From an uncultured Nitrospiraceae bacterium (GTDB lineage: Bacteria; Nitrospirota; Thermodesulfovibrionia; Thermodesulfovibrionales; Dissulfurispiraceae), in contig CAVPIW010000006.1 of the NCBI GenBank assembly GCA_963705105.1, forward strand, positions 640,001 through 704,000: a DNA stretch of 64,000 nucleotides, in the 5' to 3' direction. Of this stretch, positions 26,101 through 48,547 are shown one piece after another (the first letter of the stretch is position 1; each line of letters begins with the position of its first letter). Below the pieces are notes generated by a model. It ran no database searches. It was given only the letters and a program-made list of their open reading frames with translations, and was not told the origin of the DNA. The translations under genes were made by a program, and so were the position numbers.

Positions 26101-28857
26101 GTGCGCCAGCTCGTCCAGGCCCACGCATACTGGCGTCTCAAAGGACTGGAAGTGGACCTCGTGATCTGGAACGAGGATCACGCCGGCTACCGGCAGGTCC
26201 TGCAGGAGCAGATCATGGGACTCATTGCCGCAGGCGTCGAGGCGAACGTGATGGATCGACCGGGCGGCATCTTCGTGAGACCTGCAGACCAGATATCGGG
26301 CGAGGACCGCATCCTGTTTCAGACGGTCAGCCGCGCCATCATCACCGACACACTCGGCCCGCTCGCGGACCAGATCAATCGCCGCAGTATTATGCCGCTT
26401 GCAGTACCGCGCCTTGCCCCGACCGGGAGCCCCCGCACAGAATCTGCGACTGCCGGGGCGATGACCCGCAGCGATCTGCTGTTCTTCAACGGACTCGGTG
26501 GATTCACCCCTGACGGCCACGAGTACATCATCACGACGGCCCGCGAACAGGTGACGCCGGCGCCCTGGGTGAATGTGATCGCCAACGCGCACTTCGGAAC
26601 GGTTGTTTCGGAAAGCGGAGGCGCGTACACCTGGAGCGAGAATGCCCATGAGTTCCGCCTCACCCCCTGGTGCAACGATCCGGTCAGCGATGCTGGCGGA
26701 GAAGCTTTTTACCTCCGCGATGAAGAGAGCGGCCTCTTCTGGTCCCCTTCGCCGCTGCCGGGCCGGGGGGCGATGCATTACGTCAGCCGCCATGGATTCG
26801 GCTACAGTGTCTTTGAACATACGGAGGACGGCATAAGATCAGAGATGTGGATTTACGTGGCGATGGATGCGTCGGTCAAGTTGACGGTATTGAAGGTAAG
26901 AAACGAATCGGGCCGGTCCCGCCGGCTCTCGGCCACCGGGTATGTGGAATTGGTGCTGGGAGATCTGCGGCAGAAAACGGCAATGCATGTGAGCACCGAA
27001 ATCGACCCCAAAACAGGCGCGCTTTTCTGCCGGAACCCGTACAACACGGAGTTTGCCGGGCGGACCGCCTTCTTCGACACCGATGAGACGACCCGCACCG
27101 TGAGCGGCGACCGGACGGAGTTCCTTGGCCGTAACGGCACGCTCCGGAGCCCGGAGGCGATGACCGGCGCGTGGCTTTCAGGCAGGGTGGGGGCCGCCCT
27201 GGACCCCTGCGCCGCTATCCAGGTCCCCTTCGATCTTGCCGACGGGCAGGAGCGGGAGATCATCTTCAGGCTTGGCGTGGGACGGGATTCATTTGAGGCC
27301 GGCCAACTGGTACACCGCTTCCGCGGATCTGCCGCCGCGCGCGGGGCGCTCGAAAAGGTCTGGCAGCACTGGAATCACACCCTCGGAGCGGTGCAGGTTG
27401 AAACACCGGACCAGTCCGTCAATGTACTGGCCAACGGGTGGCTCTTATATCAAACTCTGGCCTGTCGTCTTTGGGCGCGGAGCGGATACTACCAGTCCGG
27501 GGGCGCCTTCGGCTTCCGCGACCAGTTGCAGGACGTGATGGCGCTTATCCACTCCGAGCCCTCGCTCGTGCGCGAACACCTCCTGCTCTGCGCAGCCCGT
27601 CAGTTCAGGGAGGGAGACGTCCAGCACTGGTGGCATCCCCCTTCAGGACGGGGCGTGCGCACACACTGTTCGGACGACCTTCTCTGGTTGCCCCTGGCTG
27701 TGTGCCGTTATGTGCTGACGACCGGAGACACGGGAGTGCTGGATGAAACCGTCCGCTTCATCGAGGGCCGGCCGGTAAACAAGGACGAGGACTCGTATTA
27801 CGATCTTCCCCACGCGTCCGAAGAGACGGCGAGTTTGTACGATCACTGTGTGCGGGCCATTCTGGGGGGCCTCAGCCGCGGCGAACACGGATTGCCCCTC
27901 ATCGGCTCGGGTGATTGGAACGACGGCATGAACATGGTGGGCGCTCACGGCAGGGGTGAGAGCGTTTGGCTGGCATTCTTCCTTTATAAAGTGCTCATGG
28001 AGTTCTGCGGGATTGCCCGTCTGCACGGTGATCCGCCCTTTGCCGAACGCTGCCGGGAGGAAGCTGCTCAACTGCTCAGAAGTATCGAAGAGCATGGCTG
28101 GGACGGCGAGTGGTACCGGCGCGCCTACTTTGATGACGGCTCCCCCCTGGGTTCGGCAGGCAATCCCGAATGCCGGATCGACTCCATAGCGCAGAGCTGG
28201 TCCGTTCTCTCCGGCGCCGGGGATGCCGGACGCTCGCAGACGGCAATGGAAGCGGTGGACAGGCGCCTTGTTCGACGGGACCATGGCCTTATCCAGCTCC
28301 TCGATCCGCCCTTCGACACATCGGATCTGAATCCCGGCTATATAAAGGGATACGTCCCGGGTGTACGGGAGAACGGGGGGCAATACACGCATGCGGCGAT
28401 CTGGACGGTGATGGCCTTTGCCGCGTTGGGCGACCGCAGTCGCGCATGGGAACTGCTGGCAATGATCAACCCGGTGAACCATGGGAGGACCAGGGAGGAA
28501 ACAGCGACGTATAAAGTTGAACCCTACGTCGTCGCTGCCGACGTCTATGCGGTCTCGCCGCATACCGGCCGCGGCGGATGGACATGGTACACGGGATCGG
28601 CAGGCTGGATGTACAGGCTTATCCTTGAATCACTCCTTGGGCTGAGGCGCGAAGGAGACAGGCTACGTTTCACGCCCTGTCTGCCCGGGGACTGGGAAGC
28701 GTTCAGTGTGCATTACCGGTACGGGGAGACCGTCTATCACATCAACGTTCTTCAACGGGGCGGCGGCAGTGCAGCGGGTGTGACCGTCGATGGCGCTAAT
28801 ACCCTGATAGGCACGTTCGTCCGGCAACTGGCTGCACGCCTCAGGTTGACCGGCTGA
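20110..28857 (+). CDS. ndvB: Cyclic beta-1,2-glucan synthase (Cgs/NdvB; GT84 + GH94 domains); start uncertain, last ~20 codons foreign
   Basis: [92 protein letters not shown]. Confidence 0.92.
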
Positions 28858-34884: not shown

Positions 34885-35244
34885 AGAACACCTCGCTTTC
34901 TTAGCGGTGAAGGCCTGCCGTCATTCATTGCATCTGCAACGAGCTTCATGTTGATGTTTTGCAACAGATCACGGATTGCGCTCGACCGGATATCCTTCTT
35001 CGTAAAGGGCGGAGGCGGACCCATGAAACCGGCAAAGACGGAGCGGCCGTTCTCTTTTTCGTTCAGCGCCTCCTGCATCTAGTCCGCCGAGTATCCGGCT
35101 GCAAGCAGCGTTGCCGTAATAGCTCCGGCTGACGACCCGAGGATTCTTTCAAAGGCATGCCCCCGCCTCGTGAATTCCGAACAGGCCCCAACAAAAACCA
35201 TCCCCCTTCGCTCCACCGCCTTCAAAGACGAGATCATATTTCAT
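34881..35244 (-). pseudogene. Truncated patatin-like phospholipase, copy A (frameshift plus TAG)
   Basis: MKYDLVFEGGGAKG, extra G in a G-run near 35202-35206, then MVFVGA...GSSAGAITA, in-frame TAG 35079-35081; C-terminal catalytic half absent. Confidence 0.8.
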
Positions 35245-35421
35245 GCTCGCACGCTCCCTTGGCAAGTCGTTGTTACACCACTACTGACTCACCCATCTGC
35301 GACGAGCGCATCGTCGGCCGCTGAGGTAGTCAGGATCAACGCGCCATCCCGCAGTTGAGGCAAATCCGGCATCAACCGACCACACAGTCGCATCAGCAAT
35401 TTGGACGTTCCTGTTGCGTAT

Positions 35422-36007
35422 CTATTCTGCACCCCACCAACTGTCTACATCTTGGACGGCCTCGTACACGTGCCGTAATGTAAGACCCTGATCTATGATC
35501 GCCAGCGCGCGCGCCCCAGTTTCCAGCACATAAAACAAGCCCTCGCGTCCAGCCAGTCGGCTTGTCCAGAAGCCATTGCGCAAGACCTGCAGGGCCTTCG
35601 TGTCTTGCCCTATCTGAGCCATGGCCTGTGCCACAGCGCTTAAGGCAGACGCTTTTGACCACTCATACGAAATCGTCTGGGCCATCATCTCCTCGATGAT
35701 GTCTGGCAGGAACTTCATGTTGACATGCGCAGCAGGTCGCGGGTTGCGCTGTTCTTGATTTCCTCATCCGTAAAGGGGCGGACCCATGAACTCGTCAAAG
35801 ACGGACCTGCCGTTCTCCTGCTCGTTCAACGCCGCCTCCATCTCTTCCGCCGAGTATCCGGCGGCAAGCAGCGTCGCCGTAAGAGCACCGGCTGATGTCC
35901 CGAGGATTCGTCGGAAGGTATGGCCCCGCATCGTGAATTCCGAACAGGCTCCGAAAATAACCGATCCCCTTCGCCGCGCCACCTTCAAAGACAAGATCGT
36001 ATTTCAT
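35422..36007 (-). pseudogene. Truncated patatin-like phospholipase, copy B, fused to an unrelated helical-repeat C-terminal fragment
   Basis: MKYDLVFEGGAAKG, frameshift, GTSAGALTA...ALNEQENGRSVF, further frameshifts, MKFLPDII, then KASALSAVAQAMAQIG...VDSWWGAE. Confidence 0.7.
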
Positions 36008-36249
36008 GCTCTGCTCCTCTATCTCGAGAAGGCAGCCTTCCCTTGAGCTTTTTGTTTCTTTACCAACAATTGATGGGTCCCCGATGGACGAGATTGATTT
36101 GAAGACAGAACAGCGTCAGTTGGAAACCACCTTCCTGACCAACAATCCATCCATTCCGTTTGACATCTTTATACCCTATGTGATGCTCCTATACAACAAT
36201 CATTGAGTCAACCGCCCATAAAGATTTACTGCCTTTTGTTGACATTTAT

Positions 36250-39200
36250 CTATTGCTTAGTATGGCACTTCGTGCCAATTAACTTCTTGGCTGAGTCATA
36301 CTTTGCCGTCCAGCGATTGCAATACTGATAGTCAGGGGAGAGGCCTAATACTGGCTCTTCGTTGATGCCCAGATATCTTTCTTCGATCTTGTTTCCAGCC
36401 GGGTCATACGCAAACTTCGTAATGTGTTGGTATCTGCCAAGAAGTCTTGCAGGCTTACCATCTGTTCCAAAATATCTTTTCTCGATAACTCGCCGCTGGC
36501 TGTCATACTTCTGTGTCATTCGAGCATAACCGATTAACTTATCGTACAAAGCGTTATCGTCTCCATAGCAAGCACGCTCTACTTGATTGCCGGCGGAGTC
36601 GTATTTATAGGTCTGGACCGCACAGCTACTGTTCGGAAGTATCTTCGGTCTGCCATCGCCTCCAAAGTAAGCTTCCTCTACGAGATTGCCGCGAGCATCA
36701 TATTTCATACTCATACGCGCATACCCATACTTCGCTTCCGAGGGCTTACTTTTATCATCAAATGCAGAGATTTCCGTGAGGTTCCCTCGATCATCGTATT
36801 TCTTCAATAAGCGTGAGTATTTCGATGCATTCATCACCGGCTGCCCCTCATCGTCAAAGGTCATTTGTTCCACGAGTTGCCTTCGACTATTAAATTTTTG
36901 TGTACATCGATGATATCTGTTCCCTGTCATAATGGGTTTGTTGTCATCTATTCCAAAATAGGCTATCTCCGTCTGATTGCCGTAACCATCGTACTTGGCT
37001 CTGTAACTCGCAAAACCCCATTCATTATTTTCTCCCTGCCATGGAATAAGAACTGGCTTTCTCTCGGTATTCAGATAGACCTGATAGCTCACTTTGCCTT
37101 TAACATCATATTTCATACGAGTTTCTGCATATCCCAGTACGCCTTGTGTAAGTTTCCCATTCGTATCAAAATAGGATTCGCTTGTCATTTGTCCCAATGG
37201 GTCGTACGTCCGTACGATCTTGGCAAATCCTTCGTTGCTATTAGTCAGTTTTCTATTTACAGCATAGTAGGCTATCTCCCGTTCCTTGCCTTGGGTGTTC
37301 CTTTTGATTTCAACTGTTGCGTATCTTGTTCGCTTATTCATAACTACCTTACCATCTAGCCCTTTGTAGGTAACTTCTGTTTCGTTTCCAAGATGATCAT
37401 ACTTATATCCGATCTTGTGGTATCCATCGCGATGGACAATGGGGCCTTCAGGACCAAAATATGCCTTCTCTATTGGACATCCTTCCTCCTTTAAACATCC
37501 CCGTTCGTCGTAAAGCCTCACTTCCCTATGGAACCCTTCATCCTTGTAGAAAGCCGGTTTGTCTTTAGCATCGTAAAACAATTGTTCAGTAACCCTCCCA
37601 AACGGGTCATACTTCTTGACGAGAAGTGCGTAGCCCTCTTCAGAGGTAACACGACTGTCATCAATGCCATAATATGATATTTCGATGGCTTTGCCCTGGT
37701 CGTTATAGCGTCGTTCGACTGAGTGGTAACCACCTTTTATGAACACTTTCTCAACATAGACCCCAAAGTAGGCGCTCTTCTTCTTGTTTCCGCGTAAGTC
37801 ATACTCGTGAATCGCACGCGCCCATCCGTCCTTATGCAAGACAGGCTCCCCATTAATGCCGAAATATGCCTCCTCAATAGGCTGATTTTGCGGATTAAAC
37901 TCTTTCTTCCAATAAGAATACCCGCCAGCTCTTTCATCTTGCCAAGGAACAAATGCTGGCTTGCTGTTGATATCCAAATATCGCAGATCTATAACATTTC
38001 CATGAGCATCATACTTCCTAGTCCAGCCCGCGTAGCCCTTTCGGTGCGTTACCGGACTTCCGTCTAATCCGAAGTACTTTTGCTCTATCTCATTGCCAAG
38101 AGGGTCATATTCGGATGTGTACCCTGCCACTCCGTCGCTTGATAACGTTTGCTCACCCCTTAAGCCTGTGTATGTGCGTCGCCTTTCGTTTCCTCTCTCA
38201 TCATACTCTGATTTCCAACCAGCATAGCCGTCATGCCCACGCATCGGTTTATCCATGACATTCAAATACACAGTCTCAATCTGGTTCCCGCTCGCATCAT
38301 GTTTTGCGGTCCATCCTGTGTATCCCTCAGTGCTTACGATTCGTTTACCATCGGGACCATAATAGCGAACTCTTACGACGTTGCCATAGTTATCAAATTC
38401 CTGTTCCCATCGCGAATAACCCTTGTTAGAAGCAACGGGCTCTCCCTTGATTCCGAAGTAGGTCGCGCCGATCAATTGTCCATGAACATCATAGCCTCCT
38501 GTCACCTGCGCATATCCTTCCTTGATTAAAGTCCGTGCGCCATCAGCCCCAAAATAGGAACTGTCTTCGAGTTTCCCGGAATCATTGTAACGGTACGTCG
38601 CCCGGGCATAGCCGTCCTTAAACTGCGTTAGTCTCCCTGCAGTATCATAGTAGGATGTTTCCACTAGTTTCTTTAGCCTGACGTCATATTTGCCTTTCCA
38701 GACGGCATAGCCATCCTTATTCGCTGTGAGCTTTTGATCGAGGCCAAAGCAACTCAGTTGGATAGGAAGATTGTCTTCGTCATAAGCCAAAACCAGGCTG
38801 TAGCACCCCCTATCGCCCACCGTAGGCTTATCCTCCATATCCAAGTACATCTCTTTGATGATGTTTCCCTGACCATCTCGTTTCCACTTAACTTTATGAT
38901 AGCCTTTTACGTTGAGTGTTTTTTTCCCATTCTCGTCAAAGTAACCCTCCTCAGTCATATTACCATTGTCGTCATATTCACTTCGTATGACCGAATAACC
39001 GCTCTTTAATGTAACTTTCTCTCCTAATGCATCTAAAGCCTCTTGTTTACGCGGGTTCCCAAAACCAAAGGGATCCAGATCCGTTACCTTTATAGTTGCA
39101 TTGCCGGCCTCGTCGTTCATATATTCATCATTTGGCCCCAATGATGTCTGTTCGAGCAATATTCCTTTCTTGTTGTAGCGCCTTAATTGCCCAAAAGCTT

Positions 39201-41550
39201 TATCGGGCCCACGTATGGCCTGATTGCCTCGATTCCGGTAGCGTCTGTATTCTTCGATGCCTTTCCCGGTATCTCTATATTCAATTTCTACATAACTCTC
39301 AGCGTACTGCTTATCCTTGCGAGGATAACCAGTGTCGTCTACAAAATATCCGGTTCGGACTCTCTCCCGCCCGCCTTCGGGAGGTAAATAGACAAATCCC
39401 CATATTCGCTTCCCTTTGTTATCAAGTGCTGTTTCATAAGAAACACGTTCTTGGGCATCGTAATTGAACTCCCAGGCAACCTCATTGGGTATTCGCTCTT
39501 CCGATGATTCGAGATAAGTGCCGATACGATGAATGGGGGTTAATTTTCCCTTGCTATTGACTGTTTCCATGCGAAGAACGGGACCCCATTTGCCTTTTCT
39601 TATGATTTTGATCGAGACAGGACGATGCTGGACCTGTGCGAGCGTCAATTCACCGACTCCTCTCGGCTCGCCTAAGAAAGGGCGATGCTTGACTTTTGCA
39701 AGAATCAATTCGCCGAACCCCTTCGGCTCACTATGGACCTTAACAAAAGAGCTGAAGTATTCGACATAGTCCCAATGCGTCAGATAGCGATGCAGAAGAA
39801 TGCCTACAATCAGCATCAACACCGCTGTGCCGAAACCCACGGCAAGCCGACGCATCATCTTAAGCTTTTCACGTTGTTCGGCCTCACGCTGCAGTGCCGC
39901 TTCCTTCTCCCGCTGCGCGCGATCAAGAGCTTCGGTGCTTGCCTGAACAAACTCCTTCTCGAGACGCGTGAGGTCTGCCTGCTTTCTTGCCTCTTCCAGC
40001 TGCCATTCCCTAAACAGACCATCCCAGTCTTTGGATTTTCCTTTTGCCTCCCATTGATGCGCCGCCTGAGTAAGGGAGAGGCGATCACGAAGGATGCGGC
40101 GTTTATCATCGATCCACCCTGCTAAGAGCGGCCAGTTGCGGACCAGTGACTCGTGCTTGATCTCGACCACATCGTCGGCACCACTGACGCCGGGCGTGAT
40201 GCGCAAGTAGTCGTTCTTCTTAAGCAGTTCAAGCACTTCCTCCGTGTTCGCCTTGCCAGCCTGCAGCAAGCGGCTTTTGGGCAATGGCTGGCGATAAGCC
40301 TCGAGCATCTCATCGACGCGTACCAACTCGAGGAGTATACGCTTGATCTCTGTCTGGGTTTGCTCTATTTGTGCGAGGTAGAAGGTATCGGCGGCGTTCT
40401 TGAGTGCCTCCAGGGGATCGCCTACTGTTCTGTAAACCTCCCAGGTGATTCGGTTTCGTTTGCGTTTCTCCCAAAGTGCGTGCAAGGTGAATTGTAACAA
40501 CGGAAGCGCCGCGGGCTGGCCGAGCACCTTCTTCACTAGGTCGTCTACAATTCCTGATTGGAACTGTAAGTTTACAAGGGCAGCAGGCTTCTCTACCGCC
40601 GCCGTTAATTCCTCATAACTCATTGGCCGCATCCAGTACCTTGAGGGGCTCAGTTCACGCAACTCATTGATCTTACTATCGAACTCAGCACGCACGGTCA
40701 GAATCACACGGTGGCCCCGAGCGGCATCCAATAGATGAGCGAGGTTTCTTACCAGTGCCTCACGGTCTGCGGGGTCGGACAGCGTGAACACTTCCTCGAA
40801 CTGGTCGATAGTGATCAGTGCAGTCACCGCGTTTTCTTCGCCAAGCATGGCATAAAGATATTTGGGATCCTGCCGAAGGCGTGTCACCTCCTCTGCGACG
40901 ATGCTGTTCGCGGCTGGGTGGGCTTGTCGAACAGCATTTACTAGGTTGTCGAGTACGGAATTACCCGGAACAAATGGCGGAATGACGAACAACTCAGGCA
41001 TCGCGCCTTTCTCCTTGAGCGCCGGCAGAATGCCCCCCATCACAAGGGAAGACTTCCCGCTACCAGACGCGCCAAGCACGACAACAAGCGGCTCTTGACG
41101 AAGTTTCGTCAGCAGCTCCTTTATGTCATCCTCTCGGCCGAAGAAGTTCGCCCGGTCGCGAAAGGCATCGAGGCCGACATAGGGACATAGCTTGTCCTTC
41201 AGGTCCGGCAGTTTCTCGCTGTCGAAGGGGGCCAGGTTTGCAGGCGGTACCACGATCCCCGCCCTAAACAGGCAGGAGACCCAATAGTCCAAAAGCACCT
41301 GGCAATCAGAGCGCTGAAGGATCTCTTCGATATAGACCCCTGTCGCTGCCCCACGTTCCAAGAATTGCCTGAGCTTTGGTTCAAGCCTCGCCAATGCGAC
41401 TGCTTCGCTCTTATCGGCTGCGTCTTTCTTAAGCTCAATACTCAAAGCTTTCATGAAGGCGGCGTGCTCATCCTGCAGCTCGGTCGCACTCTCGAAGGGC
41501 TCCACTCGGCGAAACTGGTCCGGATTTGACATATCTTCCCTTTCTAACAT
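36250..41550 (-). CDS. NLR-like nSTAND1 NTPase with N-terminal helical domain, one TM helix and C-terminal YD/RHS-like repeats
   Basis: CPYVGLDAF...FFGRE, Walker A GASGSGKSS, Walker B IDQFEEVFT, LPLLQFTL, IKHESLVRNW; TM LAVGFGTAVLMLIVGILL; more than 20 GY-x5-YD-x2-G-x6-Y-x-G/D-x-DG repeats; alternative start 41532. Confidence 0.88.
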   Translation of the reverse strand: MLEREDMSNPDQFRRVEPFESATELQDEHAAFMKALSIELKKDAADKSEAVALARLEPKLRQFLERGAATGVYIEEILQRSDCQVLLDYWVSCLFRAGIVVPPANLAPFDSEKLPDLKDKLCPYVGLDAFRDRANFFGREDDIKELLTKLRQEPLVVVLGASGSGKSSLVMGGILPALKEKGAMPELFVIPPFVPGNSVLDNLVNAVRQAHPAANSIVAEEVTRLRQDPKYLYAMLGEENAVTALITIDQFEEVFTLSDPADREALVRNLAHLLDAARGHRVILTVRAEFDSKINELRELSPSRYWMRPMSYEELTAAVEKPAALVNLQFQSGIVDDLVKKVLGQPAALPLLQFTLHALWEKRKRNRITWEVYRTVGDPLEALKNAADTFYLAQIEQTQTEIKRILLELVRVDEMLEAYRQPLPKSRLLQAGKANTEEVLELLKKNDYLRITPGVSGADDVVEIKHESLVRNWPLLAGWIDDKRRILRDRLSLTQAAHQWEAKGKSKDWDGLFREWQLEEARKQADLTRLEKEFVQASTEALDRAQREKEAALQREAEQREKLKMMRRLAVGFGTAVLMLIVGILLHRYLTHWDYVEYFSSFVKVHSEPKGFGELILAKVKHRPFLGEPRGVGELTLAQVQHRPVSIKIIRKGKWGPVLRMETVNSKGKLTPIHRIGTYLESSEERIPNEVAWEFNYDAQERVSYETALDNKGKRIWGFVYLPPEGGRERVRTGYFVDDTGYPRKDKQYAESYVEIEYRDTGKGIEEYRRYRNRGNQAIRGPDKAFGQLRRYNKKGILLEQTSLGPNDEYMNDEAGNATIKVTDLDPFGFGNPRKQEALDALGEKVTLKSGYSVIRSEYDDNGNMTEEGYFDENGKKTLNVKGYHKVKWKRDGQGNIIKEMYLDMEDKPTVGDRGCYSLVLAYDEDNLPIQLSCFGLDQKLTANKDGYAVWKGKYDVRLKKLVETSYYDTAGRLTQFKDGYARATYRYNDSGKLEDSSYFGADGARTLIKEGYAQVTGGYDVHGQLIGATYFGIKGEPVASNKGYSRWEQEFDNYGNVVRVRYYGPDGKRIVSTEGYTGWTAKHDASGNQIETVYLNVMDKPMRGHDGYAGWKSEYDERGNERRRTYTGLRGEQTLSSDGVAGYTSEYDPLGNEIEQKYFGLDGSPVTHRKGYAGWTRKYDAHGNVIDLRYLDINSKPAFVPWQDERAGGYSYWKKEFNPQNQPIEEAYFGINGEPVLHKDGWARAIHEYDLRGNKKKSAYFGVYVEKVFIKGGYHSVERRYNDQGKAIEISYYGIDDSRVTSEEGYALLVKKYDPFGRVTEQLFYDAKDKPAFYKDEGFHREVRLYDERGCLKEEGCPIEKAYFGPEGPIVHRDGYHKIGYKYDHLGNETEVTYKGLDGKVVMNKRTRYATVEIKRNTQGKEREIAYYAVNRKLTNSNEGFAKIVRTYDPLGQMTSESYFDTNGKLTQGVLGYAETRMKYDVKGKVSYQVYLNTERKPVLIPWQGENNEWGFASYRAKYDGYGNQTEIAYFGIDDNKPIMTGNRYHRCTQKFNSRRQLVEQMTFDDEGQPVMNASKYSRLLKKYDDRGNLTEISAFDDKSKPSEAKYGYARMSMKYDARGNLVEEAYFGGDGRPKILPNSSCAVQTYKYDSAGNQVERACYGDDNALYDKLIGYARMTQKYDSQRRVIEKRYFGTDGKPARLLGRYQHITKFAYDPAGNKIEERYLGINEEPVLGLSPDYQYCNRWTAKYDSAKKLIGTKCHTKQ

Positions 41551-42668
41551 ACTCGCAAGAGAGTCTGTAACGGTTGGTTTAGTTCACTCAGCCGGTTGCA
41601 AAAATCCTTAAGTCTTCTGTCGGCTTCCCGGAACGCGGTACCCACAAACTGCGAGTAGTTCATGAGTAAGATCCTCGCCTGCTTCTTGTCATTATGATCT
41701 AGTGCTTCATCGATAACGATTTCCATCTGACTCAGCTTTTCCTTAAGATTGTCCATGTCTTTGTCTATGAAGGGTGGTATGAGCTCTGAAGCTGCCGTCT
41801 TGGTCAATTCCCACTCACAATCCAGCCCCCCCGGTGAGAGTTTATTTGCAAGCAGGGCGCGCAACCCATCATCTAGCCTCTGTAGTTGGCCATGCTCCCT
41901 GACTCGTCTCTCAAGATCTGCTCGCAACCCGTTCAGTGCATTTATGCTCTGAACAAACTGCACAAGTAAGACATCGTTCTCAGGATGCTCCACGGACAGA
42001 GTTTCCTTTACCGACTCTAATAGCTCCACAAGACGATTCAGCTTCAGCTCCTTTGCAGCGTTAGATATCATAGAATCGAGCCTCGGTGGAATTCTGGAAC
42101 GCAGCTGTTCGAGCCCAGTCTTCACCTTGTCTAAGATAGCAGTATTTTCGGGTGCATTCACAGCCTCTTGGAAGTCCGCTTCAATTAAATCGAGTCGCTT
42201 ACCAAGATCTGGAAAGGGGTCGGTCTCACGTCCCCTGATTGCCTCCTTGATCTGATGAGATTGTTGATCAAATTGAAATTGAAGCGGATCCAGCCAAATT
42301 CTGGTCCTCCTAAGTGCCTGCATTTGGCGAAGGATTTCGAATTCAATAGTATGCAAGGAATCATGAATGGTCTTCAAAAGTTGCATCTCACTGATTCGCT
42401 GTGCAGTATCCCGCATTTCTTGGGAGAGGGTTACCCCGTTGCATGCCGTTGGATCATTGGAAATCCGGTCTGTGAGCTGTTTGAGGCCTATCTTTACAGA
42501 GTCAAGTAAACCCGGAAAGTTGATAACTATCTTGTCGCCTCTCACCTCATCCCCATGGACGAGTTTGTCACGTCCTACAGAATCGCCGCCGACGCTGACA
42601 TTGTCCTTGAAGTACGCGCCACCGGCCTTTTGATCAGCCCCTGATTCCTTTCCGTCTTCAGTCGTCAT
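41544..42668 (-). CDS. Alpha-helical hypothetical protein with N-terminal GGAY...VSVGGD.VGRDK.VHGDEVRGDKI motif (putative adaptor)
   Basis: 374-aa ORF overlapping the STAND gene start; motif shared with caspase 42753-44150. Confidence 0.75.
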   Translation of the reverse strand: MTTEDGKESGADQKAGGAYFKDNVSVGGDSVGRDKLVHGDEVRGDKIVINFPGLLDSVKIGLKQLTDRISNDPTACNGVTLSQEMRDTAQRISEMQLLKTIHDSLHTIEFEILRQMQALRRTRIWLDPLQFQFDQQSHQIKEAIRGRETDPFPDLGKRLDLIEADFQEAVNAPENTAILDKVKTGLEQLRSRIPPRLDSMISNAAKELKLNRLVELLESVKETLSVEHPENDVLLVQFVQSINALNGLRADLERRVREHGQLQRLDDGLRALLANKLSPGGLDCEWELTKTAASELIPPFIDKDMDNLKEKLSQMEIVIDEALDHNDKKQARILLMNYSQFVGTAFREADRRLKDFCNRLSELNQPLQTLLRVC

Positions 42669-42752: not shown

Positions 42753-44150
42753 CTATTTCCCCTGAATCTTATCCAGCACGAATTTGGTGACCGGCCCGGC
42801 GATTCCACCCAGAATCGGGGAGGCAAAAATACTCGCAATACCACTCACTGCTTCTGGAACTAGGGCAATCAGTCCATCGATCAGCTTGCCCATCTTGTTA
42901 TCATCAGCTGCCTTCCCTTTTGCTACTTCCTGTTTTAGCTCCTCTACCTTCTTCAGAGCCTCTGTCTGATTGGCGGCGGGCACTTCCCGAATGGATGACA
43001 TCAACGGTTCGAACAATCTTTGAAGGTCCTGATCAGATATCCCTGTGGTGACGGTGGACCGGGCGCCCCGGCCGATGGCGATCCCCTGACCAGAAATGTC
43101 CCCCACCGTTATCCTGTCGCCTAGAATTTTATCGCCTCTCACCTCGTCTCCATGGACGACCTTGTCACGGCCTACAAAATCGCCGCCGACGCTGACAGCC
43201 CCCCCGATGTACGCACCGCCGCCAGTATCAATAGTGGTCACAGTACCTGCTTTTTCACCCTCAAGAGGTGCGAGCGGATCGGGTGCTGCCAAACCCTTCG
43301 CTATACCTTTGCCGCCCAGGAGCAATGCGATCGGGAAGTTCCCGCTTACCTGGTAATCCGGCTCCTGCGGCTGACCCCAGTCAGCTTTCACGCTTTCCGG
43401 TACGTTGCGCCACACATAACTCATCACGTCGGAGACTAACACCTCCTTGGCACCCTCTTCGGGCTGCGCATGGCCAGTCAGCGCTTCGATCAAGTGATAG
43501 GTAAAGATGCTCATCTTCCCGTCCTTGCGCATATAAGAAGGTTGTTCTCCCTGTGAGGAACTCAGCACAGCCCGACCTGCTCCTTTGGTCAGCACTTCCA
43601 AACCCTTAGCGCCTTCCTTTGGAGTTACTCCCTTGGCTGCTGACATGAATATTTGCGTTGGAATGGCAGATCGCTTGTAAGAAGCAATGCCTTTAATTCC
43701 CATGCCGCCGGAATGACAACAGTCAAGTACTACGAAGAGACGCTGTGGTTTAAGAGCATTAATGGCATCAGCGAAGTCCTCTGCCCTGAGAGCACTTGAT
43801 TTGAATGCCTCCTCGTCCACGTCGTACGGAATGAGAAAATACTGAGGCTGCTGGCCGTCGTCTCGGTCTCCATGTCCTGAGTAAAACACGATAGCCGTGG
43901 CATTTCCGCTTGCATCATCGTTAATCTTCTTCTTTAGTCGGGTTAGCCCTCCAAGGATATTCGCGCGAGTCGAATTCGACCCCAGGATGACTTCGACGTT
44001 TTTCTCAAGATAGGCACACCGCTCCGGATGGACAAGTACATTTTGCAGAGCCGTAACATCTTTTTCCACATCAGGAAGAGCCCATGTGGGATTGCTGTTT
44101 TCGTTAACTCCAATCAACAACGCATATCCACTAATGAATTGCTTTGCCAT
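42753..44150 (-). CDS. Caspase-like (peptidase C14) protease with Gly-rich repeat motif and C-terminal helical domain
   Basis: YALLIGVN, catalytic FYSGHG and LDCCHSG, SIFTYHLIEALTG; GGAGGAGG RBS before ATG 44150. Confidence 0.9.
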   Translation of the reverse strand: MAKQFISGYALLIGVNENSNPTWALPDVEKDVTALQNVLVHPERCAYLEKNVEVILGSNSTRANILGGLTRLKKKINDDASGNATAIVFYSGHGDRDDGQQPQYFLIPYDVDEEAFKSSALRAEDFADAINALKPQRLFVVLDCCHSGGMGIKGIASYKRSAIPTQIFMSAAKGVTPKEGAKGLEVLTKGAGRAVLSSSQGEQPSYMRKDGKMSIFTYHLIEALTGHAQPEEGAKEVLVSDVMSYVWRNVPESVKADWGQPQEPDYQVSGNFPIALLLGGKGIAKGLAAPDPLAPLEGEKAGTVTTIDTGGGAYIGGAVSVGGDFVGRDKVVHGDEVRGDKILGDRITVGDISGQGIAIGRGARSTVTTGISDQDLQRLFEPLMSSIREVPAANQTEALKKVEELKQEVAKGKAADDNKMGKLIDGLIALVPEAVSGIASIFASPILGGIAGPVTKFVLDKIQGK

Positions 44151-44281
44151 TTCCTCCTCCACCTATGGTCGGTTCTGATAAAGAGTGAGACATCCAACAC
44201 GGTACAAGCGTTCCCCTTAGTCATCTCATTCGAGAACCTGTTGTACTAGAGTAGAGCTGATCGGCATTTCTCTTTGTTTGT

Positions 44282-45079
44282 TCAGAAGCCGGAGACCTTG
44301 ACAAAGGCGCTCTCACTGGCGAGCTGCCCCACTCTATCTGACTTTTTCTTCTTGATCCCTTTAATGGCCGCTGATCCTGTCTCCAGCGGCTCGTATGTCG
44401 TGTAGCGCCCCTGATCATAGAAAAGACGCACTGCCTGAAAGCCGAACACAAGCGGAATGGAGGACTCGTATGTCACCTTGGAGGTTACCGAGGATGCGCC
44501 TGAGGTTTTCACGTTCCCGCCCACGATGCCTTGAATCTCAGGGATGCTGACATCGAGCGCCGCTCCATTTGATTTCTTCGCTTCAACAGTGAACTTCGTC
44601 CCCTTGATGGTCGCCGTGGTGACATACAGTTCATCCGCTTCCAACAAGTCCGCGACGTAGCGGGAGAAAGGGCTCACATCAGCGTCTGCCAGGTACTGGT
44701 CAAGTTTGATAATCTCAACGCTGTCCTCGAACACATCCTGAAATTCGAACGCGGCTGTCTTTGCCTGCTCATACTTCATATCGAGCCCGAGTTTTGAGCC
44801 GCCCATCGCACCGATTATGCTGCCGAGGATCGACAAACCAACTCCTATGCTCAGGTCACCTGTGCGCTGACCCGAGATATCGGCAGTACGGGCATTCTGG
44901 ATGGCCGGCGGGGAAATATTCTTGCCGGCCACGAGGAGTGTTGTCAGATCGCCCAGGCGAGTGAGGTCCTTCCCGTTGCGGGATAACACTTGAAGCGGCT
45001 TGACATCTGCCTTGGGCAAACGAATCACATTATAGCCAAAAGACTTGAGATAGGTGAGGAATGGATCGTTGCAGAACAT
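44282..45079 (-). CDS. bGSDM: Bacterial gasdermin
   Basis: N-terminus MFCNDPFLTYLKSFGYNVIRLPKADVKPL resembles, from memory, Runella gasdermin (MECNDPF...GYSLVAYPK) including Cys3; 265 aa; alternating beta-strand core; PLVFGF near C-terminus; lies between two caspase-like proteases. Confidence 0.88.
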   Translation of the reverse strand: MFCNDPFLTYLKSFGYNVIRLPKADVKPLQVLSRNGKDLTRLGDLTTLLVAGKNISPPAIQNARTADISGQRTGDLSIGVGLSILGSIIGAMGGSKLGLDMKYEQAKTAAFEFQDVFEDSVEIIKLDQYLADADVSPFSRYVADLLEADELYVTTATIKGTKFTVEAKKSNGAALDVSIPEIQGIVGGNVKTSGASSVTSKVTYESSIPLVFGFQAVRLFYDQGRYTTYEPLETGSAAIKGIKKKKSDRVGQLASESAFVKVSGF

Positions 45080-45247: not shown

Positions 45248-46072
45248 CTACACAAAGCGGGCCTTCCTCTTGGTCGCCTCGCACTCCAGCTGAGGTATCT
45301 GGCTGTAATGACCGGCTTGAAGTCCTTTTCTGACCTGCTCGAGCACCTTTTTTCGGGAAAGCTTGTTTTTGCTGTCATTCATCACCTTGCAGAAGTGGTA
45401 GGTGAAGGCCCCGTGCCAGCCCCCAGCGATGTATGCATCAGCGCTGGTCTGATCAGACCGGCAGCCTGCCCAGAGGATGTGATGGATAATGCCTTTTTCG
45501 AGCATCGATTCATACAGTCCGCGGGATCGACGCCCCTCGACCATCTTGAAGGCTTCGTAGGAAGGGGGCGGCATCCATCGCGGTTTGCGGTCAGGCAGGA
45601 AATCAAGAGCTTTGATGCCCGTGCCGCTGTGGCAGGTATCAAGATAGACTTCCAGTAGGACGTTCGCCGGCAACTGGACGAAGAGATCATGCAATTCGTC
45701 ATCGACAATGATGTATTTCGGGTCCCAGATACTCCCGGCCGACGCCAGGTCATGGGGGCAGACGGCCTCGTCTGCTCTATCCGGCTCGTCCCCGCTCGTA
45801 TCCGGCACCTGGGTCCCGTGGCTGGACAGGCTGAAGACCAGGTAACTGTATTTCCCCTTCTTGGCCCCGTCTACCATTTCCTTGAGATTCTTCATGATGT
45901 TCGCTTTCGTGGCCTGGGTGTCTGTCAACTTGACGATATCTCCAGGGCCAAAACCGAGCCACTTCTTGAGCAGGGCTTCCATGTCATTGGCGTCATTCAC
46001 ACAACCCTGTAACGCGCTGCCGGGATAGTTTTTGAAGTTGTTGATCCCCACACACAGAGCTCTCTTTGCCAT
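45248..46072 (-). CDS. Caspase-like (metacaspase, peptidase C14) protease, single domain
   Basis: KRALCVGIN, LQGCVNDA, SSHGTQ, DEAVCPHD, DDEL, LDTCHSG, GAFTY, QIPQL; GGAGG RBS before 46072. Confidence 0.93.
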   Translation of the reverse strand: MAKRALCVGINNFKNYPGSALQGCVNDANDMEALLKKWLGFGPGDIVKLTDTQATKANIMKNLKEMVDGAKKGKYSYLVFSLSSHGTQVPDTSGDEPDRADEAVCPHDLASAGSIWDPKYIIVDDELHDLFVQLPANVLLEVYLDTCHSGTGIKALDFLPDRKPRWMPPPSYEAFKMVEGRRSRGLYESMLEKGIIHHILWAGCRSDQTSADAYIAGGWHGAFTYHFCKVMNDSKNKLSRKKVLEQVRKGLQAGHYSQIPQLECEATKRKARFV

Positions 46073-46120
46073 GATTTTCTCCTCCTTGTTCGTTTTCATG
46101 CTCATGACCTCCTTCTGAGA

Positions 46121-48217
46121 TCATTCCGTTACAATCCATATGGGGTTTGTTACGCACCGGAAAAGCCCCTCGCCCGTCTTGGGGTTTATGCGTGAAGCGG
46201 CCTCCATCCGCAGGTAGCAGGGACTCTCTGTCCATGCTGAAAATGTGTGTACGATGCTGCCATGGAAGCCGCTTTCTTTGTTCCCGAGAGTCGGGAGACC
46301 GATTTCATCGGTTATGTCTGTTTCGGCATCAGCAGTGCCCCGAAAGAGATGTATTCTTTCAATGGGCCCGAACTCCTCATTACTTTGCCATTCAATATGC
46401 AGGTCGAGACTTTCGCCGGGTGGAATAGTGAAAGTGTCGCCAAATCGGTACTCCTTCTCATCTCCTTTCTTGCGGAGGGAGAAAAACACAATGGGGCCAT
46501 CGCTCAGAAGGGCCCTGCCGGCTTTCAGAGCGCCGAGAAGATCAGCCTCAGTCAGCGCCTCGCCAGCCTCTTTCGGCAGATACGCCAGGGTGCGCACCTT
46601 GCCAAAGGCGTTGTCGTTGAGAGTGTGGATGAAGAACACAGGATGGGGGCGGAAGGCACAGTTGAAGTCCATATGGGCGTCTGAGCCGGCGAGGACAAAG
46701 TACTTCTTCAGTGTCTTTATCTGCGTATATTCCCGCAATGACGGCCGGAGAAAGTGCTCAACCCAGTGCTCACGGATTCCCGTGTCAAGATCATGCGACC
46801 AGGACTTCTTCTTGTCAGTCTTTTTGAACATCTCATAGGGATCGAGGTAGGGGCGGTCGATCGAGGAGTCGGTAGTACACTCCATGAGGATCTTTTCATT
46901 GAAGATCTGAAGACCACAGAACAGGTCTCTGTATCGGGGATTCATGACGACGGCATAATCCTCTTCGTGCCAGATGTACCCGTTTGAGGAGGGGTGAGCG
47001 GCATACAGGAATCCCTGTCGGGGCTGCGGACTCAGTAGTATCCGTTCAAAAACCTCTGCCATCGTCAGGGTTCCGAATCCCGCGATGTGCGTGTCCTCGA
47101 TGAAGGGATTATCGTAAGAAAGGACATGCAGGCCGGCAAAGTATTTCCTCACGGTGACCTCTTCGGCGGCGACCAAGAGGACATCGGGATATCGTATGTT
47201 TGTATCAGCCACTGCCTTCTTGTAAGAAGACCAGCGGTTTCCCTGCTCTTCTTCCTCGTCGGTCTTCGTGTGGCCAAGGCAATAGGAATGGTCGGTCACT
47301 GTCACCCAGGCAAGACCCGTTGCTCTGGCTACCTCGGCACTCATCGGCAGGGGGCTGCCGTACTCGTAAGGGTTGTCGGTAAAGTCAGAGTGGAAATGCG
47401 TGTCACCATACAGCCATCCGTCAACCCGGGGTAGATCGTATTCAGAGACAAGAGTGCGGAGGACGATCTGCTTACTCCTGTCGATTCCGAGAAAGCCTTC
47501 AAATGTGATGATGACGCAATAATGGAGGTAACGGGCCTTTCCATACGCGGGATGGGTCCAGTCGACGGGCGTGAAACATTTCCTGTCGAGATGAATGATC
47601 CTGTACCAGGGATCGGTGTTGACCGTCTCGTAATCCTCGCCTTCGTCGAACCTCAGGGGAGCAGGCATGCCGTTTTCCTCGACCTCTGCACCTTTGGTGT
47701 CAAGCACCTTCACTATACTGCCGGGAGGAAGCGACTGCGGCGTGCCTCCCGATGACGACGTCCAATGATTGAAGGCGATGGATCGGATTCTGATCTTTAC
47801 GGGACCAACGTCTTTAAGGTATACAATCACAGGGACATAAGGGCAGCTCTTTTCAAGCCGGTAGGGCGCGTCGACCACGAGATCCATGGCAGGCGTATTC
47901 GGCTGTTTTGCGGCTGCTCTCTTTTCAAATTTGTGTTCTACTTTGTCCTTGTCCAGCTCTATTGTTTGGCCCTTGACGATAGGACGTCCGGTGTCGGCAT
48001 CTATGACCTTGAGCGTATAGGTGCCCCTTGGAATGCCTTCAATCTCGACGTAATATGTGCCATTATCTTTCTTTAGCTTGGTGTAGTCCTCCAGGGCGGT
48101 TCGAATCACTTTCCTGGATCTCTCTCGCTTGAGCTCGATGATCACCGGCTGCCAAAAGCGACCCATTTCATGGTCACCGATGTCGAAAGCAACCCGTATT
48201 GTTCCTCTATCTCCCAT
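46121..48217 (-). CDS. PHP-domain (CehA/McbA-like) metallohydrolase with N-terminal beta-sandwich domains
   Basis: GDTHFHS, VTDHS, AAEE, AAHP, AGSDAH, ALKAGR, C-terminal TNPIW. Confidence 0.8.
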   Translation of the reverse strand: MGDRGTIRVAFDIGDHEMGRFWQPVIIELKRERSRKVIRTALEDYTKLKKDNGTYYVEIEGIPRGTYTLKVIDADTGRPIVKGQTIELDKDKVEHKFEKRAAAKQPNTPAMDLVVDAPYRLEKSCPYVPVIVYLKDVGPVKIRIRSIAFNHWTSSSGGTPQSLPPGSIVKVLDTKGAEVEENGMPAPLRFDEGEDYETVNTDPWYRIIHLDRKCFTPVDWTHPAYGKARYLHYCVIITFEGFLGIDRSKQIVLRTLVSEYDLPRVDGWLYGDTHFHSDFTDNPYEYGSPLPMSAEVARATGLAWVTVTDHSYCLGHTKTDEEEEQGNRWSSYKKAVADTNIRYPDVLLVAAEEVTVRKYFAGLHVLSYDNPFIEDTHIAGFGTLTMAEVFERILLSPQPRQGFLYAAHPSSNGYIWHEEDYAVVMNPRYRDLFCGLQIFNEKILMECTTDSSIDRPYLDPYEMFKKTDKKKSWSHDLDTGIREHWVEHFLRPSLREYTQIKTLKKYFVLAGSDAHMDFNCAFRPHPVFFIHTLNDNAFGKVRTLAYLPKEAGEALTEADLLGALKAGRALLSDGPIVFFSLRKKGDEKEYRFGDTFTIPPGESLDLHIEWQSNEEFGPIERIHLFRGTADAETDITDEIGLPTLGNKESGFHGSIVHTFSAWTESPCYLRMEAASRINPKTGEGLFRCVTNPIWIVTE

Positions 48218-48547
48218 GTCTCCTCCTAAAGGCTATACCCCGCAGTCAAAAAGGTTCCGGCAAAAAGGCCGAGCCCACTGAACGCGTCTATCCTTCGGCA
48301 GCTCTGCCACCTTATCGTTACATAAGACCCGCCGCTTTCCGTCGCACCCTCGCAGATGGGTTCTTCTTCGTGATTCAAAGGCTGATGCGGCGCTGCGCAG
48401 TACCCGCAGGTCGTCTGTTTCGAGCTGGCTATCAATCGTCGCATTTATCCTATTTCTGATTTCTATATACATATATAACAGAAAATATCGACATTGTCTT
48501 GACATTTCTTCTCTTTCTTTTGATCTTTTTTGCTTTTTTACCTTATC

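What the first reader, a model, noticed from the sequence alone, without database searches (positions are those of the whole stretch)
36250..39860. NLR-like protein whose sensor is about 1150 aa of YD/RHS-like repeats beyond a TM helix
Seen: after the nSTAND1 module and a coiled coil comes one hydrophobic helix preceded by KLKMMRR, then many ~32-aa GY...YD..GN..E..Y.G.DG repeats with scattered Cys. Known: nSTAND1 proteins usually end in WD40, TPR or FGE-sulfatase sensors; YD repeats form beta-sheet shells in RHS toxins and teneurins. Inference: cytoplasmic NTPase with a periplasmic shell-like sensor, so the system may detect envelope-level attack (phage injection, contact-dependent toxins, predators). 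No RHS-core PxxxxDPxG motif or toxin tip is visible.
Basis: partly seen in the sequence, partly recalled or inferred. Interest (0 to 1): 0.75.

Follow-up and report, generated by a model that had tools for sequence, protein, structure and literature searches.

The report
Bacterial suicide receptor with cocoon-like sensor
This gene encodes an immune-type ATPase switch joined through one predicted membrane helix to a large repeat domain predicted to coil into a toxin-container-like shell, and it ends a caspase–gasdermin gene cluster, so it likely lets the bacterium sense an attack on its envelope from outside the cytoplasm and kill itself.

Summary
ORF 36250–41550(−), 1766 aa, reads: unnamed N-domain, nSTAND1 NTPase (motifs intact), coiled coil, one positive-inside hydrophobic helix, then 1176 aa of 32-aa β-hairpin repeats. 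AlphaFold models these as a 70-strand meander (pLDDT 91) whose best structural matches are RHS/teneurin shells, not propellers; there is no RHS core motif or toxin tip.

(1) The gene ends a caspase–gasdermin–caspase–adaptor cluster. (2) The helix is general to this NTPase clade (116 of 118, including WD40/TPR forms), so it is not special to this sensor. (3) The repeat domain is a mobile ectodomain, found behind nSTAND1, Ser/Thr kinase, TIR or only a signal peptide, often ending in PDZ. This gene is a chimera: its NTPase and ectodomain trees conflict.

Best reading (0.6): a type-II membrane STAND receptor that senses a periplasmic signal and triggers gasdermin death via an adaptor. Ligand, topology and coupling are untested. 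Receptor-like NTPases with periplasmic sensors are already predicted in print; I found no report of this repeat sensor. The scan had not noted it on other DNA. New variant of a known kind.

The parts
36250..41550 (-). Receptor gene, 1766 aa: N-domain, nSTAND1, coiled coil, predicted TM helix, 32-aa repeat ectodomain
41191..41526 (-). Unnamed N-terminal domain (residues 9-120), conserved in the clade; likely docks the adaptor
   Evidence: no Pfam hit at E<=1; present in 118 of 120 proteins examined; upstream adaptor in 26 of 27 loci
40030..41184 (-). nSTAND1 NTPase module (residues 123-507) with intact Walker A and B
   Evidence: PF20703 E 3e-88; motifs
39790..39867 (-). Basic patch KLKMMRR (562-568) and predicted single transmembrane helix (569-587)
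   Evidence: hydropathy; conserved with positive-inside bias in homologues
39001..39780 (-). Membrane-proximal cap (591-850), 14 predicted strands, with a 20-aa tandem duplication at 608-647
36253..39000 (-). 28 regular 32-aa YD-like hairpin units (851-1766), predicted continuous beta-meander spiral; no RHS core motif, no toxin tip
41544..42668 (-). Adaptor, 374 aa: N-terminal beta-rich motif shared with the caspase, then a conserved ~320-aa domain predicted as two four-helix bundles; overlaps the receptor start by 7 bp
42753..44162 (-). Caspase-like protease, 469 aa, His/Cys motifs present, carrying the shared motif at residues ~314-346
   Evidence: PF00656 E 3e-18
44282..45079 (-). Bacterial gasdermin, 265 aa, with Cys3
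   Evidence: NCBIfam NF051890 220 bits, cut-off 100; PADLOC bGSDM E 2e-87; PDB 7n51 E 4e-45
45248..46105 (-). Second caspase-like protease, 285 aa, His/Cys motifs present
   Evidence: PF00656 E 8e-30
46121..48217 (-). CehA/McbA-like metallohydrolase, 698 aa, first gene of the run; membership in the system not shown
   Evidence: NF038032 64 bits, below its cut-off of 80; a 56%-identical paralogue lies on contig C14

Best explanation
The gene encodes an nSTAND1 NTPase followed by one hydrophobic helix and 1176 aa of 32-aa repeats at the end of a caspase-gasdermin gene cluster, and it likely works as an inner-membrane receptor whose predicted periplasmic beta-shell would detect an envelope-level threat and trigger gasdermin cell death. 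Steps: (1) predicted: type-II topology, NTPase in the cytoplasm, repeats in the periplasm. (2) predicted: the repeats wind into an RHS-like hollow spiral without cargo. (3) inferred, untested: a foreign or damage-derived macromolecule binds the shell and clusters the receptors, so the STAND modules oligomerise, as known for Avs/NLR proteins. (4) inferred: the N-domain recruits the 374-aa adaptor. (5) inferred: the adaptor's N-terminal motif binds the 76%-identical motif in the 469-aa caspase, possibly as an amyloid. (6) inferred from established bGSDM biology: a caspase removes the gasdermin tail and pores kill the cell. The ectodomain is one of several interchangeable sensors on this chassis and was probably swapped in.
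For: Topology: 219 of 241 repeat-family proteins have a hydrophobic helix before the repeats, 213 of those 219 have more K/R on the N side, and only 4 of 241 have one within or after the repeats. The same repeats follow Ser/Thr kinase (56), TIR (35) or nSTAND1 (124) domains; 8 proteins have, by eye, only a signal peptide before them; 70 end in PDZ and 2 in a TAXI binding protein. Cys pairs 18 apart occur 114 times against 37+/-6 in 200 shuffles, 79 of them in one register in 50 proteins. The host has BamA and LpxC. Other post-helix domains on related NTPases include bacterial SH3, subtilase and FGE. Fold: pLDDT 90.7, pTM 0.79; the top Foldseek hits are RHS effectors and teneurins; VIA Z 10.9, rmsd 13.5, 646 aligned. 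Output: six same-strand genes with intact motifs. The adaptor domain lies directly upstream in 26 of 27 N-domain loci, fused to TIR, CHAT or EAD1/7/10. Three YD-type nSTAND1 genes from metagenomes follow a TIR gene. Adaptor with receptor residues 5-330 gave weak support: score 0.47, best control 0.00, runs agree in at least 46% of contacts, partner pLDDT 72; the mark was reached by 116 of 157 solved and 2 of 215 mismatched pairs, but at 0.60 or under by only 18 solved pairs and by both mismatches. Swap.
Against: No real TM predictor or experiment; hydropathy only. No ligand evidence of any kind. A gasdermin is near only 1 of the 27 other N-domain loci (L032, divergent), and near none of the 4 metagenome YD loci, so the gasdermin link rests mostly on this locus. 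The Cys co-occurrence per unit is modest: 12 seen against 3.1 expected, and 109 of 121 position-20 Cys lack the partner. The global match to RHS shells is poor (TM 0.38), and I could not inspect the model for a lumen. The receptor itself does not carry the shared motif. Signs of decay flank the cluster: two broken patatin genes and a sub-threshold riboswitch. PADLOC does not recognise the receptor.
Confidence: 0.6

Rival explanations
1. The ectodomain is a guard or mechanical gauge rather than a pattern receptor: it would bind a host envelope component (peptidoglycan, outer-membrane or periplasmic proteins) and fire when that is damaged or displaced, as proposed for Zorya.
For: Sister chassis proteins carry bacterial SH3 domains after the helix (L004, L024). 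70 of 241 repeat proteins end in PDZ. The same ectodomain serves Ser/Thr kinases, which need not be immune. The PCTM proposal invokes peptidoglycan perturbation (10.64898/2026.10.19.760177, passages).
Against: Repeats diverge faster than the NTPase: mean 78% against 92% identity over 105 pairs of a 15-member clade, and 76-79% against 91% in a close trio. That fits a changing foreign ligand, though relaxed constraint gives the same pattern. Ectodomains are swapped between chassis.
Confidence: 0.15
2. The helix is not a membrane span but a buried helix, and the whole protein would be an ordinary cytoplasmic Avs-like NLR that binds a phage protein with an unusual beta sensor.
For: Characterised Avs proteins sense phage proteins inside the cell (PMC13581612, abstract). 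WD40 and TPR, the commonest sensors in this clade, are usually cytoplasmic (general knowledge). Only hydropathy was run.
Against: The helix varies in sequence but keeps hydrophobicity and basic N-flank in 116 of 118 clade members. The repeats also occur behind signal peptides only and with PDZ or TAXI domains. Paired Cys.
Confidence: 0.08
3. The receptor-adaptor pair signals, but not to this gasdermin: the caspase-gasdermin genes would be a separate module in a defence island, or the locus is a recent, decaying assembly that no longer works.
For: Gasdermin near 1 of 27 other N-domain loci; 0 of 40 relatives and 0 of 400 phylum genomes matched the adaptor with this query; broken patatins and weak riboswitch beside the cluster; gaps of 84-168 bp between some genes.
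Against: The adaptor has no effector domain of its own, and its N-terminal motif matches only the neighbouring caspase in this genome. All six frames and catalytic motifs are intact. Gasdermins also lie beside helix-bearing nSTAND1 genes in L032 and L117.
Confidence: 0.14
4. It is an RHS-type toxin container or export device that would hold and release a cargo protein.
For: The fold's best matches are RHS toxin shells; weak RHS_repeat and YD_repeat_2x scores.
Against: No PxxxxDPxG in this protein; the pattern occurs in only 3 of 241 family members. The protein ends in a repeat unit, has a membrane anchor, and Pfam finds no PAAR or toxin domain.
Confidence: 0.03

Closest known systems
Lysobacter gasdermin system: gasdermin, two proteases, NLR-like STAND ATPase (PMC10312443, passages)
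   Same: Gasdermin, two proteases and a STAND receptor in one cluster; an adaptor-type link between receptor and protease.
   Different: Here the proteases are C14 caspases, no CARD was found, a separate helical adaptor gene is present, and the receptor has a predicted TM helix and a beta-repeat ectodomain. The word 'transmembrane' does not occur in that paper.
PCTM and receptor-like TIR-ParA systems (10.64898/2026.10.19.760177, passages)
   Same: Cytoplasmic NTPase, single TM, variable periplasmic sensor, upstream effector gene (caspase among them), TAXI association; predicted to sense periplasmic perturbation. Closest in logic.
   Different: The NTPase is ParA, not STAND; listed sensors are TPR, pentapeptide, SPOR, PASTA, SH3 and others. 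'RHS' and 'gasdermin' do not occur in the main text. Prediction only.
nSTAND1-FGE/EAD conflict systems and Avs receptors (PMC8195603 section 7; 10.1101/2023.09.22.558884 passages; PMC13581612 section 5)
   Same: Same NTPase family, variable C-terminal sensor, effector on a neighbouring gene linked by an adaptor domain; one NACHT-CLec target was already predicted to have a periplasmic sensor.
   Different: Described sensors are TPR, WD40 and FGE. The N-domain and the 320-aa adaptor domain match no Pfam family.
RHS/YD shells (RhsA 7q97, Salmonella Rhs 8qjc, TcB-TcC) and teneurins
   Same: Continuous antiparallel beta-meander wound as a spiral with YD-like turns; teneurins are also type-II membrane proteins (search listing).
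   Different: 32-aa unit with an extra ~12-residue loop, TM-score at most 0.38 to any solved shell, no core motif, no toxin, fused to an NTPase, kinase or TIR.
BASS amyloid signalling pairs (10.1101/2020.01.06.895854 and 10.1101/2024.11.07.622273, passages)
   Same: A short beta-rich motif shared between neighbouring genes of a death pathway.
   Different: In BASS pairs the motif is at the receptor's N-terminus and the effector's C-terminus; here it is on a separate adaptor and inside a caspase. I did not compare the motif with BASS consensus sequences, which are in figures.

Membership tests
nSTAND1 STAND NTPase (PF20703) | Profile match above cut-off over the whole model | tested here: met
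   297.5 bits, cut-off 27.1, positions 1-378 of 379
nSTAND1 STAND NTPase (PF20703) | Intact Walker A and Walker B | tested here: met
   GASGSGKS and ITIDQFEE; K166, D249 and E252 invariant in 16 clade members
NLR-like / Avs pattern receptor | N-terminal effector or adaptor domain, NTPase, C-terminal repeat sensor | tested here: met
NLR-like / Avs pattern receptor | Sensor in the cytoplasm | tested here: not met
   Predicted only: helix, positive-inside bias and exported homologues; no experiment
NLR-like / Avs pattern receptor | Ligand-induced oligomerisation and anti-phage activity | not testable with these tools
   needs experiment
RHS/YD polymorphic toxin | YD/RHS repeats | tested here: inconclusive
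   RHS_repeat 31.2 bits (cut-off 22) and YD_repeat_2x 24.6 bits (cut-off 15.8), but no single stretch passes on its own; period is 32
RHS/YD polymorphic toxin | Spiral beta-sheet shell | tested here: inconclusive
   Best matches are RHS shells, but TM 0.38 with rmsd 20 A and Z 10.9 with rmsd 13.5; coordinates not available to check closure
   absent
RHS/YD polymorphic toxin | C-terminal toxin domain | tested here: not met
   the last residues are a repeat hairpin
Bacterial gasdermin system | bGSDM with N-terminal Cys and short C-terminal tail | tested here: met
Bacterial gasdermin system | Adjacent caspase-like protease with His/Cys motifs | tested here: met
   two C14 proteases
Bacterial gasdermin system | Protease cleaves the gasdermin downstream of this receptor | not testable with these tools
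   needs experiment
PCTM (ParA with C-terminal TM) | ParA-family NTPase | tested here: not met
   NTPase is nSTAND1
PCTM (ParA with C-terminal TM) | Single TM, periplasmic sensor, upstream effector gene | tested here: met
   by prediction and gene order
BASS amyloid signalling | [quoted passage not shown] | tested here: not met
   the motif is on the adaptor and the caspase, not the receptor
BASS amyloid signalling | Motif forms templating amyloid | not testable with these tools
   needs experiment

The most novel reading that the evidence does not exclude
The RHS-like cocoon has been turned from a toxin container into a periplasmic trap that captures polypeptides threading through the envelope (phage ejection or tape-measure proteins, injected toxins), read out across the membrane by STAND, TIR or kinase modules: a widespread, undescribed class of Toll-like surface receptors in bacteria, here wired through an adaptor and an amyloid-like motif to a transmembrane inflammasome that fires gasdermin before the invader's genes are expressed.
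Probability: 0.2. Interest if true: 0.88.

Novelty: new variant of a known kind. Interest (0 to 1): 0.66.

Why it matters
The STAND receptors characterised in the papers I read detect phage proteins inside the cell. A STAND receptor that signals across the inner membrane to a caspase-gasdermin pathway would join surface sensing (Toll-like) and inflammasome output in one bacterial protein. The repeat ectodomain is a large family (1286 clusters at 50% identity with E<=1e-30) shared by STAND, TIR and kinase receptors, with no function assigned in my searches. This locus offers a built-in readout (gasdermin cleavage and death) for finding its ligand, and for testing whether the many helix-bearing nSTAND1-WD40/TPR proteins also sense outside the cytoplasm.

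Tried and rejected
Propeller fold: rejected; the model is a continuous meander and the listed top PDB hits are RHS/teneurin shells. Sequence search of the ectodomain against PDB: nothing below E 0.16. Viral structure library: only MORN-repeat and similar matches, TM-score at most 0.17. Adaptor fold search: generic four-helix bundles, best Z 13.1 over 107 residues, within the range the tool calls common for helical bundles; Foldseek nothing at E<=0.001. ESM Atlas on homologue P0083 (450-1000): unnamed or partly RHS_repeat clusters, best 0.91; the window's own sequence could not be searched there. Paralogues of the receptor in the genome: none at E<=1e-4. Ectodomain in plasmids: no match. In 400 own-phylum genomes 29 matched alignment A3, all listed matches within the NTPase part. 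In 351 genomes of the phylum of G411 neither the ectodomain nor the chassis query matched at strict cut-offs, with no positive control. No RNA holder listed. Literature searches for this architecture gave no paper describing it; one search returned only mammalian papers. Term search of 7 supplementary files of PMC13581612 for RHS, YD repeat, transmembrane, periplasm, gasdermin, teneurin found nothing, but its sensor clusters are numbered and its figures are not held, so the sensor could be there unnamed; bioRxiv supplements could not be seen. The careful NTPase tree did not finish; quick trees were used. L021 was left out of the adaptor alignment because its upstream ORF call looked spurious.
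Full report
1. The observation. The stretch is the C-terminal part of one ORF, 36250-41550 on the minus strand, 1766 aa. Pfam finds nSTAND1 over residues 123-507 (E 3e-88) and only weak RHS_repeat, DUF2963 and MORN_2 scores further on. Walker A and B are intact. After a coiled-coil-like segment come KLKMMRR (562-568) and the single strongly hydrophobic window of the protein (569-587, mean 2.31; next 1.44). The region beyond has a clear 32-residue period (autocorrelation 0.166 against at most 0.082 in 100 shuffles scored at other lags) and no PxxxxDPxG. A profile built from the units gives the pattern G-Y-A-x-x-x-x-x-Y-D-x-R-G-N-x-I-E-x-x-Y-F-G-x-D-G-x-P over 4670 aligned units of the family.

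2. Fold. With 92 aligned sequences AlphaFold2 gave a confident model of residues 591-1766 (pLDDT 90.7, pTM 0.79), all beta, 70 strands: a 14-strand cap and 28 regular hairpins. Foldseek ranks RhsA, other T6SS Rhs shells, teneurins and TcB-TcC first (E 5e-40) but with TM-score at most 0.38 and rmsd near 20 A. The independent aligner agrees: Z 10.9, rmsd 13.5, 646 aligned; Z 9.7, rmsd 4.9, 511 aligned for RhsP. Matches of roughly 300-residue stretches to VDAC and Tom40 barrels in the same list suggest about that many residues per turn (inference). So it is RHS-like in construction but not a copy of any solved shell, and not a propeller. I could not open the coordinates, so a closed lumen is inferred, not shown.

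3. Topology. No dedicated predictor was available, so I used the family. The repeat domain has 493 relatives at E<=1e-20 in the first search and 1286 clusters at E<=1e-30 in the second. I analysed 241 proteins: the 120 listed (this protein included) and the 121 further ones listed. N-terminal parts by BLAST to exemplars: nSTAND1 124, kinase 56 (one with both), TIR 35 (two with nSTAND1), AAA_35 7, unassigned 22 (exemplars checked by Pfam). 219 of 241 have a hydrophobic helix before the repeats, 213 of these 219 with more K/R on the N side; 4 of 241 have one within or after the repeats. Eight proteins look, by eye, like signal peptide plus repeats only; 70 end in a PDZ domain and 2 in a TAXI binding protein. 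Cys pairs 18 residues apart are enriched (114 against 37+/-6), 79 in the register that replaces the two conserved Tyr of a hairpin, in 50 proteins; this protein has three such pairs. Against this, per-unit co-occurrence is modest (12 against 3.1) and sequences are related. The host has BamA and LpxC, so a periplasm exists; I did not determine its taxon. Together these make type-II topology likely.

4. The helix is not special to this sensor. Searching with residues 1-330 gave 295 relatives, mostly WD40, also TPR, FGE and subtilase forms. Of 120 examined, 118 share the unnamed N-domain and 116 of those have the same helix. Related genes in genomes carry SH3, FGE, WD40, TPR or a weak trypsin match after it. 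The chassis is thus a membrane-anchored STAND with interchangeable ectodomains.

5. The gene is a chimera. Its ectodomain is 68-71% identical to P0002, whose NTPase is only 26% identical; its NTPase is 62-69% identical to P0099, P0072, P0121 and P0122, whose ectodomains are about 30% identical or unrelated. In the NTPase tree it groups with P0099 (98), far from P0002; forcing it with P0002 is rejected (p-AU 3e-38), and so is one clade of all 17 repeat-bearing NTPases (p-AU 0.003). In the cap tree it pairs with P0002 (99), and a clade with P0099 and P0072 is rejected (p-AU 0.0002). These are quick, unrooted trees, so they show exchange but not donor or order. G+C at fourfold sites drops from 0.60 to 0.49 across the helix (p 0.002), the ectodomain lying in the lowest 0.4% of 563 long ORFs on two contigs. 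One contig of run X1 spans the junction without differences. Repeats also diverge faster than the NTPase among close relatives.

6. The output side. Upstream on the same strand lie a 374-aa gene overlapping the receptor start, a 469-aa caspase, a gasdermin, a 285-aa caspase and a metallohydrolase. The gasdermin has Cys3 and both caspases keep their His and Cys motifs. The 374-aa protein and the 469-aa caspase share a 34-aa beta-rich motif, 76% identical. The rest of the 374-aa protein is a conserved domain predicted as two four-helix bundles with no Pfam match. Of 79 loci fetched, 27 have the N-domain, and in 26 of these the gene just upstream aligns to this domain with nine invariant residues. 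There it is fused to TIR (L001, L003), CHAT (L007, L032), EAD1, EAD7 or EAD10, and all 6 further homologues carry TIR. So N-domain and adaptor are a constant pair carrying variable effectors. A complex prediction gave weak support only (0.47, best control 0.00; at least 46% contact agreement; pLDDT 72; such low passes are, by the tool's counts, 18 of 157 solved pairs and both of the 2 false passes among 215). In this locus the adaptor has no enzyme, only the motif that matches the caspase, which is the main reason to link receptor and gasdermin. That link is rare elsewhere: 1 of 27 loci (L032), plus a gasdermin beside a kinase-nSTAND1-helix-WD40 gene in L117. Three repeat-bearing nSTAND1 genes without the N-domain follow TIR genes instead. 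The adaptor was not found in 40 relatives or 400 phylum genomes with this query, the patchy spread usual for defence loci.

7. Mechanism. Most likely (0.6): an inner-membrane receptor; a periplasmic ligand clusters it; the STAND modules oligomerise; the N-domain recruits the adaptor; the shared motif recruits the caspase; the gasdermin is cut and the cell dies. Shown: gene content, motifs, repeat period, gene order, chimerism. Predicted: topology and fold. Inferred: every signalling step and the defensive role. The ligand is unknown. A hollow shell suited to extended polypeptides and the frequent terminal PDZ point to a protein ligand, but a guard role on the host envelope (0.15), a missing or dead link to the gasdermin (0.14), a cytoplasmic sensor (0.08) and a toxin container (0.03) remain.

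8. Comparison with print. bGSDMs next to C14/CHAT proteases and NACHT or repeat domains are known (10.1101/2021.06.07.447441, passages), as is a STAND-controlled gasdermin system (PMC10312443, passages). nSTAND1 was defined with FGE sensors and EAD adaptors (PMC8195603, passages and section 7). TM-bearing STANDs are mentioned: NACHTs with TM regions likely recognising periplasmic signals (10.1101/2022.07.19.500537, passages), one periplasmic CLec (10.1101/2023.09.22.558884, passages), and 'transmembrane STAND ATPases' as sensors (PMC12642450, passages). Receptor-like NTPases with periplasmic sensors are predicted for ParA (10.64898/2026.10.19.760177, passages) and for GAP1-N2 systems (PMC7159879, passages). 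Envelope-level phage sensing is established for Zorya, Kiwa and SNIPE (review PMC13434031, passages). The STAND survey PMC13581612 (abstract, passages, section 5, term search of supplements) names TPR, WD40 and FGE sensors. None of these passages, nor the listings, describes an RHS-like STAND sensor, this adaptor pair, or a membrane-spanning receptor for a gasdermin. The library lacks most subscription papers.

9. Verdict. A real, intact and unusual receptor: a new variant of a known kind. The concept of a periplasm-sensing NTPase receptor is anticipated in print, which lowers surprise; the cocoon-like mobile ectodomain, the unnamed adaptor pair and the gasdermin readout make it directly testable. 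Interest 0.66.

Noticed in passing
window 34930-35245 and 35560-36010 (-): Two frameshifted patatin-like gene remnants directly downstream of the receptor; an intact patatin gene (Pfam PF01734) lies in the related cluster L007, so patatin may belong to such loci.
   Followed up: partly
window 48293-48372 (-): Sub-threshold c-di-GMP-I-GGC riboswitch match (30.4 bits, gathering score 59, E 8e-4) ahead of the cluster.
   Followed up: partly
window 41544-42503 (-) and 26 loci among L001-L039: An unnamed ~320-aa two-bundle helical domain with invariant K99, H102, D103, H259, Q263, W286, F346, D350, L353, always upstream of N-domain nSTAND1 genes and fused to varied effectors; the invariant His/Asp could bind a metal or ligand.
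   Followed up: partly
window 39610-39729 (-): A 20-aa tandem duplication in the cap (residues 608-647), low confidence in the model.
   Followed up: no
G000 contig C13 53339-60382; C14 143768-145864 and 310334-311044: Three caspase genes close together on C13 (two with identical match statistics), a 56%-identical paralogue of the metallohydrolase, and a further caspase on C14.
   Followed up: no
L007:5060-9959: Two CHAT proteases in a Nitrospira cluster share a repeated beta-rich stretch (…GGQVIG…QGNQ…), a second apparent case of a paired motif linking protease and adaptor.
   Followed up: no
P0122, P0159, P0167, P0174, P0176, P0197, P0208: A group of ~1750-1770-aa chassis proteins; P0122, the one scanned, has a ~1200-aa post-helix region with no Pfam match: another unknown ectodomain.
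   Followed up: no
P0074, P0272: ~2890-aa proteins in which a two-helix plus repeat module appears twice in tandem.
   Followed up: no
window 20110-28857 (+): A 2915-aa ORF that looks like cyclic beta-1,2-glucan synthase (recalled from sequence; not scanned).
   Followed up: no
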